The notes under the pieces: generated by a model
Database searches by the model: none
What the model saw: only the letters and a program-made list of their open reading frames with translations
Told to the model about the DNA's origin: nothing
Part shown: piece after piece, positions 54,420 through 55,541 of the stretch
Layout of the letters: each line of letters opens with the position of its first letter
How positions within the stretch are numbered: position 1 is the first letter of the stretch
NCBI RefSeq assembly: GCF_002854065.1
Contig: NZ_CP024147.1
Direction: 5' to 3' (one strand)
Origin: Escherichia coli
GTDB taxonomy: Bacteria > Pseudomonadota > Gammaproteobacteria > Enterobacterales > Enterobacteriaceae
Length of the DNA stretch: 64,000 nt
Made by a program: the position numbers and the translations under genes

Positions 54420-55541
54420 ATGAAGTATATAGCAACATCTGTAGTGGCAATGCTGCTCTTATCTGGTTGTGATAATACGCAAAGTAACAATTCATCCCCG
54501 TCAGAAACAGAAGTCGGCGTTGTTACAGTCAAATCTCAACCGGTCTCGGTAGTCAGTGAATTAACCGGACGCACCAGTGCTGCGCTCAGTGCCGAAGTAC
54601 GTCCGCAGGTTGGGGGAATTATCCAGAAACGCTTATTTAAGGAGGGTGATCTGGTCAAGGCTGGACAGCCGCTCTACCAGATTGATGCGGCCAGTTATCA
54701 GGCTGCATGGAATGAAGCTTGGGCAGCATTACAACAAGCACAGGCACTGGTAAAAGCCGATTGCCAGAAAGCGCAGCGTTATGCCCGACTGATGAAAGAG
54801 AACGGTGTTTCACAACAGGATGCTGATGATGCTCAGTCTACCTGTGCACAAGATAAAGCCAGTGTAGAGGCGAAAAAAGCCGCACTGGAAACTGCGCGCA
54901 TTAATCTTGACTGGACCACGGTAACCGCACCGATTTCAGGGCGCATTGGCATTTCGTCGGTAACCCCTGGCGCACTGGTGACCGCGTCGCAAGATACAGC
55001 GTTAACGACTATTCGTGGTCTGGATACAATGTATGTCGACCTCACTCGCTCCAGTGTCGATTTATTACGTCTGCGTAAACAGTCACTGGCGACCAACAGT
55101 GACACCATGAGCGTCTCACTTATTCTGGAAGATGGCACAACCTACAGCGAAAAAGGGCGTCTGGAACTCACCGAAGTCGCTGTAGATGAGTCTACCGGTT
55201 CGGTGACATTACGGGCGATTTTCCCCAATCCACAACAGCAGTTATTACCGGGAATGTTTGTTCGCGCTCGTGTCGATGAAGGCGTGATGGAAGACGCTAT
55301 TCTCGCGCCGCAACAGGGCGTCACGCGCGATGCTAAAGGCAATGCAACTGCGCTGGTGGTGAATAAAGACAATAAAGTAGAGCAGCGAACGCTCGAAACG
55401 GGAGAAACATATGGTGATAAATGGCTGGTGCTAAACGGCCTGCACAACGGCGACCGACTGATTGTTGAAGGTTCTGCAAAAGTCACTTCAGGGCAGACGG
55501 TCAAGGCTGTTGAAGTTCAGGCTAATGGAGGCAACGCCTGA
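54420..55541 (+). CDS. RND-efflux periplasmic adaptor lipoprotein, AcrA/MexA family (373 aa)
   Basis: Start placed at ATG 54420 (MKYIATSVVAMLLLSGC, lipobox LSGC) with GGAGA upstream; extensive similarity to AcrA as remembered (VGVVTVK..., ETARINL..., LPGMFVRARV..., ILAPQQGVTRD...). Confidence 0.9.
   Translation: MKYIATSVVAMLLLSGCDNTQSNNSSPSETEVGVVTVKSQPVSVVSELTGRTSAALSAEVRPQVGGIIQKRLFKEGDLVKAGQPLYQIDAASYQAAWNEAWAALQQAQALVKADCQKAQRYARLMKENGVSQQDADDAQSTCAQDKASVEAKKAALETARINLDWTTVTAPISGRIGISSVTPGALVTASQDTALTTIRGLDTMYVDLTRSSVDLLRLRKQSLATNSDTMSVSLILEDGTTYSEKGRLELTEVAVDESTGSVTLRAIFPNPQQQLLPGMFVRARVDEGVMEDAILAPQQGVTRDAKGNATALVVNKDNKVEQRTLETGETYGDKWLVLNGLHNGDRLIVEGSAKVTSGQTVKAVEVQANGGNA

What the first reader, a model, noticed from the sequence alone, without database searches (positions are those of the whole stretch)
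54420..55541. Periplasmic adaptor carries two extra cysteines in the predicted alpha-hairpin
Besides the lipobox cysteine, the adaptor has Cys in ...VKADCQKAQRY... and ...DAQSTCAQDKAS..., positions that would fall in the coiled-coil hairpin that contacts the outer-membrane channel in AcrA-type proteins. AcrA as I remember it has no cysteines there. A disulfide across the hairpin could stabilise it or make it redox-sensitive.
Basis: inference. Interest (0 to 1): 0.2.

Follow-up and report, generated by a model that had tools for sequence, protein, structure and literature searches.

The report
Conserved cysteine pair in EefA hairpin
The efflux-pump adaptor protein EefA of E. coli carries two cysteines facing each other across its helical hairpin; they are real, kept in every close relative and probably form a stabilising disulfide, but a 2026 paper had already pointed this out and nobody has tested it.

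Summary
The 373-aa lipoprotein at 54420-55541 has three cysteines: C17 (lipobox), C115 and C142. It is EefA, the adaptor of the accessory eefRABCD RND pump that sits between fabI and sapF in about 38% of complete E. coli genomes. C115 and C142 align to AcrA Q123 and A150. They lie on opposite helices of the alpha-hairpin at the same height, about 13 residues below the tip. All 27 species-level orthologues of at least 70% identity and all 121 close Escherichia/Shigella variants carry both cysteines, with synonymous TGC/TGT turnover. The next clade (Yersinia, Serratia, Brenneria and others) has Lys/Arg115 with Tyr142. None of 150 diverse relatives has a cysteine at either site, and no single-cysteine form was seen. 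The best reading is an intramolecular, DsbA-made disulfide staple replacing a Lys/Arg-Tyr packing pair. I could not measure the distance because no model coordinates were available, and no experiment exists. The finding is not new: the supplement of Pugh et al. 2026 (PMC12817139) already notes the predicted proximity of C115 and C142 and a plausible Cys-Cys bridge. What this work adds is the clade-wide co-conservation, which includes Klebsiella EefA. Interest is low to moderate.

The parts
54420..55541 (+). eefA: RND periplasmic adaptor lipoprotein, 373 aa
   Evidence: ORF. TIGR01730 RND_mfp scores 273.9 bits against a cutoff of 94.9. Pfam HlyD_D23, HlyD_3 and CusB_dom_1 match. About 50% identity to AcrA and MexA structures. 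RefSeq annotates it as an 'efflux RND transporter periplasmic adaptor subunit'.
54420..54470 (+). Signal peptide with lipobox LSGC; C17 (codon 54468-54470) is the lipidated Cys and is followed by Asp18
   Evidence: Read from the sequence. C17 is conserved in 134 of 151 relatives. That Asp at +2 means inner-membrane retention is established lipoprotein-sorting knowledge and was not tested here.
54690..54911 (+). Alpha-helical hairpin, residues 91-164 (helix 1 91-126, loop 127-131, helix 2 132-164)
   Evidence: DSSP on the AF2 model with pLDDT 97-98 in this region. The model superposes on AcrA and MexA chains at TM 0.79-0.85.
54762..54764 (+). C115 codon (TGC), helix 1; equivalent to AcrA Q123
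   Evidence: Invariant in 27 orthologous species with 14 TGC and 13 TGT codons.
54843..54845 (+). C142 codon (TGT), helix 2, at a hydrophobic core position; equivalent to AcrA A150
   Evidence: Invariant in 27 orthologous species with 9 TGC and 18 TGT codons. The family column is L/Y/A/V/W.
54777..54812 (+). RLS tip motif R120 / L124 / S131, the part that docks to the outer-membrane factor
   Evidence: Aligns to AcrA R128/L132/S139. Nearly invariant in alignment A1. The same numbering is given by Pugh et al..
53705..54271 (+). eefR, TetR-family repressor of the operon
   Evidence: Pfam TetR_N. RefSeq annotation. EefR repression of eefRABCD is reported in PMC12482432.
55541..58648 (+). eefB, RND permease, 1035 aa
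   Evidence: Pfam ACR_tran, 1240 bits. Its start overlaps the eefA stop codon.
58652..60025 (+). eefC, outer-membrane factor (OprM-like lipoprotein), intact in this window
   Evidence: Pfam OEP x2. Uninterrupted 457-aa ORF.
60034..61197 (+). eefD, MFS exporter
   Evidence: Pfam MFS_1. RefSeq annotation.

Best explanation
C115 and C142 form an intramolecular disulfide that staples the two antiparallel helices of the EefA alpha-hairpin about two to three helical turns below the RLS tip that docks onto the outer-membrane channel EefC. EefA is exported unfolded through Sec, lipidated at C17 and held on the inner membrane. Its only two other cysteines are consecutive and would be oxidised by DsbA in the periplasm. 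The pair arose once, in the common ancestor of the Enterobacteriaceae-type EefA, and replaced a Lys/Arg115-Tyr142 packing contact. It has been kept since as a unit. The likely effect is extra rigidity and stability in the tip-proximal part of the hairpin. What is shown: the position, the matching height, the clade-wide co-conservation under purifying selection, and the absence of the pair elsewhere in the family. What is inferred: the bond itself, DsbA as the catalyst, and the stabilising role.
For: (1) C115 and C142 sit on opposite helices at equal distance from the loop. (2) All 27 species-level orthologues of at least 70% identity carry both Cys: Escherichia spp., Klebsiella spp., Raoultella, Kluyvera, Lelliottia, Phytobacter, Kosakonia, Pseudocitrobacter, Rahnella and others. 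The ten sister-clade loci at 59-64% identity have K/R115 with Y142, and no single-Cys form exists. (3) All 121 close Escherichia/Shigella variants are C/C, and 0 of 150 diverse representatives have Cys at either column. (4) Both codons flip between TGC and TGT. Only 29 of 74 hairpin positions are invariant in the clade, and the residues around C142 vary. (5) Column 142 is a hydrophobic core position. It lies in a big-residue/Ala layer pattern with i+j = 256, and 115 is the flanking position beside its layer partner 114. (6) 142 is the best mutual-information partner of 115 on helix 2, ranking 41 of 992 inter-helix pairs. (7) An idealised antiparallel coiled coil gives Calpha-Calpha of 5.4-6.0 A at Alacoil-like spacing. 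[quoted passage not shown]
Against: There is no experimental evidence of the bond. I had no access to model coordinates, so no S-S or Cbeta-Cbeta distance was measured. In the idealised model the unadjusted Cbeta-Cbeta distance is 5.5-6.1 A, longer than the roughly 3.5-4.6 A typical of disulfides. A 20-30 degree rotation of helix 1 is needed to reach 3.6-4.8 A. The co-occurrence reflects one evolutionary gain, so it is a single independent event. The mutual-information signal is weak because only 135 sequences were usable.
Confidence: 0.65

Rival explanations
1. The two cysteines form intermolecular disulfides. C115 of one protomer bonds C142 of its neighbour in the hexameric adaptor ring, covalently locking the funnel.
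For: Each hairpin helix has two conserved faces. Both faces pair at the same height sum (i+j = 256), so sequence alone cannot say which face is intra-hairpin. Coevolution cannot separate intra-chain from inter-chain contacts.
Against: C142 lies on the face with two hydrophobic positions per heptad (a large residue plus Ala), which is a proper two-helix core. The other face has only one Ala per heptad and could not hold an isolated hairpin together, yet MexA and AcrA hairpins are stable as monomers in crystals (inference). The published monomer homology model puts C115 and C142 of the same chain close together.
Confidence: 0.07
2. The cysteines are kept as free or reversibly oxidised thiols. 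They would act as a redox switch or a soft-metal (Cu, Ag, Zn, Cd) site that tunes pump assembly or gating in the host.
For: The pair is strictly conserved. The physiological substrate of the pump is unresolved, and Klebsiella eef is linked to gut colonisation and acid tolerance. C115 occupies a flanking, partly solvent-exposed position.
Against: Two apposed cysteines in the DsbA-oxidising periplasm are expected to be disulfide-bonded (established knowledge). There are no other ligand residues (His, Met) next to them. No metal or redox phenotype is reported in the text I read.
Confidence: 0.12
3. The pair has no joint function. The two residues are tolerated substitutions inherited from one ancestor and kept by ordinary constraint on helix packing.
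For: There was only one origin event. 39% of hairpin positions are also invariant in the clade.
Against: Cysteine is otherwise absent from both columns in 150 diverse relatives and nearly absent from hairpins altogether. Two rare residues arising together at apposed positions, with no single-Cys descendant in 27 species and 121 variants despite synonymous turnover, is unlikely without coupling.
Confidence: 0.12

Closest known systems
E. coli EefA of the eefRABCD operon (Pugh et al. 2026, Microb Genom, PMC12817139; Shen et al. 2025, PMC12482432)
   Same: It is this protein. The fabI-sapF location, the five-gene operon and the residue numbering (R120/L124/S131/D136, C115, C142) all match. The paper's supplement already notes the predicted C115-C142 proximity and a possible Cys-Cys bridge.
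   Different: [quoted passage not shown] Here it is shown to be invariant across EefA orthologues of many enterobacterial genera, including Klebsiella, and to replace a K/R-Y pair of the sister clade.
E. coli AcrA (PDB 5V5S, 5O66, 9TG4, 2F1M)
   Same: About 50% identity, the same four-domain lipoprotein fold, a hairpin of the same length with no gaps, and a conserved RLS tip motif.
   Different: AcrA has Q123 and A150 where EefA has C115 and C142, and it has no hairpin cysteines. EefA scores far below the AcrA equivalog cutoff (389 against 765 bits) and partners with its own OprM-like channel, not TolC.
Pseudomonas aeruginosa MexA (PDB 2V4D, 6TA5, 6IOK)
   Same: It is the best NCBIfam match (399.5 bits) and a close structural match. 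Like EefA, it works with an OprM-type lipoprotein channel.
   Different: The score is below the MexA cutoff of 750 bits. The MexA residues at the two Cys columns were not read individually; within the nearest 150 cluster representatives none has Cys at these columns.
EefA-like adaptors of Yersinia, Serratia, Brenneria, Pectobacterium and Dickeya (sister clade, 59-64% identity)
   Same: The adaptor-RND-OMF gene order is the same, and so are the hairpin length and the RLS tip.
   Different: They have Lys/Arg115 and Tyr142 and no cysteines. Locally they read A-K/R-L and S-Y-Q where EefA reads D-C-Q and T-C-A/N.

Membership tests
RND-type periplasmic adaptor (membrane fusion protein; TIGR01730 RND_mfp) | Sequence match above the curated cutoff | tested here: met
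   TIGR01730 scores 273.9 bits against a cutoff of 94.9. Pfam HlyD_D23, HlyD_3 and CusB_dom_1 are above their cutoffs.
RND-type periplasmic adaptor (membrane fusion protein; TIGR01730 RND_mfp) | Four-domain fold with an alpha-helical hairpin | tested here: met
   AF2 model with pLDDT 91.7 and hairpin at 91-164. Foldseek TM 0.79-0.85 to AcrA chains in AcrABZ-TolC.
RND-type periplasmic adaptor (membrane fusion protein; TIGR01730 RND_mfp) | N-terminal lipobox or transmembrane anchor | tested here: met
   L-S-G-C17 followed by D18. The column is Cys in 134 of 151 relatives.
RND-type periplasmic adaptor (membrane fusion protein; TIGR01730 RND_mfp) | RLS motif at the hairpin tip | tested here: met
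   R120/L124/S131 align to AcrA R128/L132/S139 and are nearly invariant in A1.
RND-type periplasmic adaptor (membrane fusion protein; TIGR01730 RND_mfp) | Encoded next to an RND permease | tested here: met
   eefB (ACR_tran, 1240 bits) starts at the eefA stop codon, and the OMF gene follows.
EefA of the E. coli eefRABCD operon | Five-gene TetR-PAP-RND-OMF-MFS operon between fabI and sapF | tested here: met
   The window is 99.95% identical to NZ_CM128593.1 across fabI-eefRABCD-sapF. The description in PMC12817139 matches.
EefA of the E. coli eefRABCD operon | Published residue landmarks R120/L124/S131/D136 and C115/C142 | tested here: met
   The same residues occur at the same numbers in the translated ORF.
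AcrA equivalog (NF011604) | Score above the equivalog cutoff | tested here: not met
   389.1 bits against a cutoff of 765. It is a paralogue-level relative, not AcrA.
MexA (NF033834) | Score above the cutoff | tested here: not met
   399.5 bits against a cutoff of 750.
Disulfide-bonded periplasmic protein (DsbA substrate) | Sec-type export to the periplasm and an even number of non-lipid cysteines | tested here: met
   Lipoprotein signal peptide without a twin-arginine motif, and exactly two mature-chain cysteines besides C17.
Disulfide-bonded periplasmic protein (DsbA substrate) | Cysteine side chains within bonding distance | tested here: inconclusive
   The two are at the same height. The idealised coiled coil gives Calpha-Calpha 5.4-6.0 A but Cbeta-Cbeta 5.5-6.1 A unless helix 1 rotates 20-30 degrees. 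Published homology models report close proximity.
Disulfide-bonded periplasmic protein (DsbA substrate) | The bond is actually present in vivo | not testable with these tools
   This needs non-reducing gels, thiol trapping or mass spectrometry.

The most novel reading that the evidence does not exclude
The conserved C115-C142 pair is a functional switch, not a passive staple. Its redox state, or an intermolecular variant of the bond between neighbouring protomers, would control whether the EefA hexamer can engage and open the unusually gated EefC channel. That would tie pump activity to periplasmic redox conditions in the gut or during infection.
Probability: 0.1. Interest if true: 0.55.

Novelty: already known. 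Interest (0 to 1): 0.25.

Why it matters
If the bond exists, EefA would be the first RND adaptor shown to carry a natural disulfide across its channel-docking hairpin. The EefABC pump is confined to infection-associated E. coli lineages and to Klebsiella-type enterobacteria, and its physiological role is still unknown. The pair gives a clean experimental handle: Cys-to-Ser mutants, a K/Y swap from Yersinia, and a dsbA background. With these one can ask how much hairpin rigidity matters for adaptor-channel coupling. The practical value is modest. The feature is already noted in print, and a structural disulfide is an ordinary device.

Tried and rejected
Structure prediction returns only pLDDT and secondary structure, and no coordinate file appears in /data, so nothing was measured. 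(2) search for homologous proteins returned only near-identical E. coli variants in its top 120, which was no use for judging diversity. The 50%-cluster representative search and the one-genome-per-species scan replaced it. (3) Mutual information with APC on 135 gap-free sequences gave only weak support: the 115-142 pair ranks 41 of 992, and the height-sum diagonals are not resolved. (4) An idealised Crick coiled-coil model cannot decide bond feasibility. The result depends on the assumed radius and helix phase, with Cbeta-Cbeta ranging from 3.6 to 8 A. (5) I considered and rejected the idea that this is AcrA, MexA or another named pump adaptor, because the scores are far below the equivalog cutoffs. 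(6) I looked for other natural Cys pairs in hairpins of related adaptors and found none among 150 representatives, only 7 single cysteines. (7) Two reviews on adaptors were searched for natural hairpin disulfides. In the one whose passages I read (PMC4446572), only engineered cross-links are discussed.

Full report
**What is at the coordinates**

Window 54420-55541 (+) encodes a 373-aa protein that begins MKYIATSVVAMLLLSGCDN. Its only cysteines are C17, C115 and C142. C17 sits in a lipobox (L-S-G-C) and is followed by Asp. C115 (TGC, 54762-54764) lies in VKADCQKAQRY. C142 (TGT, 54843-54845) lies in DAQSTCAQDKAS.

**What the protein is**

- It matches TIGR01730 (RND_mfp) at 273.9 bits against a cutoff of 94.9, and several HlyD/CusB Pfam domains.
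- It aligns end to end with solved AcrA and MexA chains at E about 1e-104 to 1e-97.
- It scores far below the AcrA and MexA equivalog cutoffs (389 against 765 bits and 399.5 against 750 bits). It is therefore a distinct adaptor.
- The flanking genes are a TetR regulator (53705-54271), an RND permease (55541-58648), an OprM-like outer-membrane factor (58652-60025) and an MFS exporter (60034-61197).
- The DNA is 99.95% identical to a stretch of an E. coli chromosome between fabI and sapF. The adaptor gene is present in 2040 of 5426 complete E. coli genomes.
- This is the eefRABCD operon described by Pugh et al. 2026 (PMC12817139) and Shen et al. 2025 (PMC12482432). The protein is EefA.

**Where the cysteines lie**

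The alignment to AcrA has no gaps through the hairpin. It puts C115 on AcrA Q123 and C142 on AcrA A150. The RLS tip motif is retained as R120/L124/S131, and AcrA has no cysteine in this region.

An AlphaFold2 model built on a 107-sequence alignment (mean pLDDT 91.7, hairpin blocks 97-98) gives helix 1 at 91-126, a loop at 127-131 and helix 2 at 132-164. The model superposes on AcrA chains of the assembled pump at TM 0.79-0.85. C115 is 11 residues from the end of helix 1 and C142 is 10 residues from the start of helix 2. The two are therefore on opposite helices at the same height, about 13 residues below the tip.

**Evolutionary test**

This is the strongest new evidence.

- Among the 150 nearest cluster representatives (50% identity clusters, 41-60% identical to EefA; two shorter or partial matches are higher or lower), none has Cys at either column. 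Column 115 is mostly R/K/Q/E and column 142 mostly L/Y/A/V/W.
- Only 7 of the 150 have any cysteine in the hairpin, and none has a pair.
- All 121 close Escherichia/Shigella variants have both cysteines.
- A one-genome-per-species scan with tblastn read-out shows that all 27 orthologues of at least 70% identity carry both cysteines. These include four further Escherichia species-level lineages, Pseudocitrobacter, Kluyvera, Lelliottia, seven Klebsiella genomes including K. pneumoniae ATCC 13883, Raoultella, Phytobacter, Kosakonia, an Enterobacter, a Citrobacter and Rahnella.
- The next clade at 59-64% identity (Yersinia, Serratia, Brenneria, Pectobacterium, Dickeya, Ideonella) has K/R115 with Y142. 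No sequence has only one of the two cysteines.
- Both codons alternate between TGC and TGT across species: 14 TGC and 13 TGT at 115, and 9 TGC and 18 TGT at 142.
- Only 29 of 74 hairpin positions are invariant in this clade, and the residues flanking C142 vary. Both residues are therefore under purifying selection and were gained and kept together.
- The adaptor-RND-OMF gene order is kept in all these species wherever the locus extends far enough.

**Geometry**

The column profiles show the pattern h-x-h-x-h-x-x in both helices.

- One face has two hydrophobic positions per heptad. On helix 1 these are 97/100/104/107/111/114/118/121/125. On helix 2 they are 135/138/142/145/149/152/156/159/163. 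They pair as large-residue/Ala layers with i+j = 256, which is an Alacoil-like antiparallel core.
- The opposite face carries one near-invariant Ala per heptad (95/102/109 and 140/147/154). It most likely mediates side-by-side packing in the hexamer (inference).

C142 is a core residue whose layer partner is 114. C115 is the flanking position next to that partner. This fits the K/R-Tyr packing seen in the sister clade.

Position 142 is the best mutual-information partner of 115 on helix 2, although the signal is weak (rank 41 of 992). An idealised Crick coiled coil gives Calpha-Calpha of 5.4-6.0 A at tight spacing. It gives Cbeta-Cbeta of 5.5-6.1 A unless helix 1 rotates by 20-30 degrees, which brings it to 3.6-4.8 A. 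The geometry is therefore compatible with a bond but does not prove one.

I could not get model coordinates, so the decisive distance was not measured here. Pugh et al.'s homology models on MexA 2V4D and AcrA 5V5S do report 'close proximity of C115 and C142'.

**Most likely mechanism**

EefA has a Sec-type lipoprotein signal peptide and exactly two non-lipid cysteines, and they are consecutive. In the oxidising periplasm DsbA is expected to join them (established knowledge; not tested). The bond would staple the two hairpin helices just beneath the RLS tip. It would rigidify the part of the adaptor that docks to EefC, whose gate differs markedly from that of TolC.

I give this 0.65. The rivals are:

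- an intermolecular bond between neighbouring protomers (0.07);
- a free-thiol redox or metal site (0.12);
- no joint function (0.12).

**Comparison with what is known, and novelty**

The finding is not new. The supplementary text of Pugh et al. [quoted passage not shown] No experiment has addressed it.

This analysis adds three things:

- The pair is a clade-wide, strictly co-conserved feature of EefA orthologues across many enterobacterial genera, including Klebsiella EefA.
- It replaced a K/R-Y pair.
- The change came with a local remodelling: A-K/R-L became D-C-Q at 114-116, and S-Y-Q became T-C-A/N at 141-143.

The mechanism itself, a structural disulfide, is ordinary.

**Verdict**

The feature is already in the literature. 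Interest is 0.25.

Noticed in passing
window 52101-53430: A complete IS2 copy, with typical terminal inverted repeats and AAATAT duplicated at both ends, is inserted in the fabI-eefR intergenic region 274 bp upstream of the eefR start codon. None of 5426 complete E. coli genomes shares this junction (0 places cover at least 80% of window 51981-52220). The insertion could alter expression of the normally repressed eef operon.
   Followed up: partly
window 58652-60025 versus L001 13233-14606: The closest genome (NZ_CM128593.1, with 100% identical eefA) has eefC W144 changed to a stop and annotated as a pseudogene. The window has an intact 457-aa eefC. This single codon is the only difference.
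   Followed up: yes
window 54759-54767 and 54840-54848 (residues 114-116 and 141-143): Asp114 is invariant in the Cys-pair clade, although the family consensus at this core position is Ala. The two cysteines arrived together with a local change from A-K/R-L to D-C-Q and from S-Y-Q to T-C-A/N relative to the Yersinia/Serratia clade. A buried or half-buried Asp next to the putative disulfide is unexplained.
   Followed up: partly
L036-L080 (Pseudomonas relatives), hairpin region: Pseudomonas adaptors at 49-53% identity lack about 7 residues in each hairpin helix, near EefA 111-117 and 139-146. This is one heptad removed from both helices at matching height, consistent with hairpin length evolving by paired heptad indels.
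   Followed up: no
window 54690-54911 (hairpin), alignment of 135 relatives: Both hairpin helices carry a second, nearly invariant face made of single alanines (A95/A102/A109 and A140/A147/A154, each 123-132 of 135 except A140 at 98 of 135) opposite the hairpin core. This is probably the protomer-protomer interface of the hexameric funnel.
   Followed up: partly
eefRABCD, window 53705-61197: The two published studies disagree on substrates. Pugh et al. 2026 find no antibiotic phenotype, only ethidium and rhodamine efflux. Shen et al. 2025 report that de-repressed or overexpressed EefABC and/or EefD lowers susceptibility of acrB-null E. coli to sanguinarine and diverse antibiotics.
   Followed up: no
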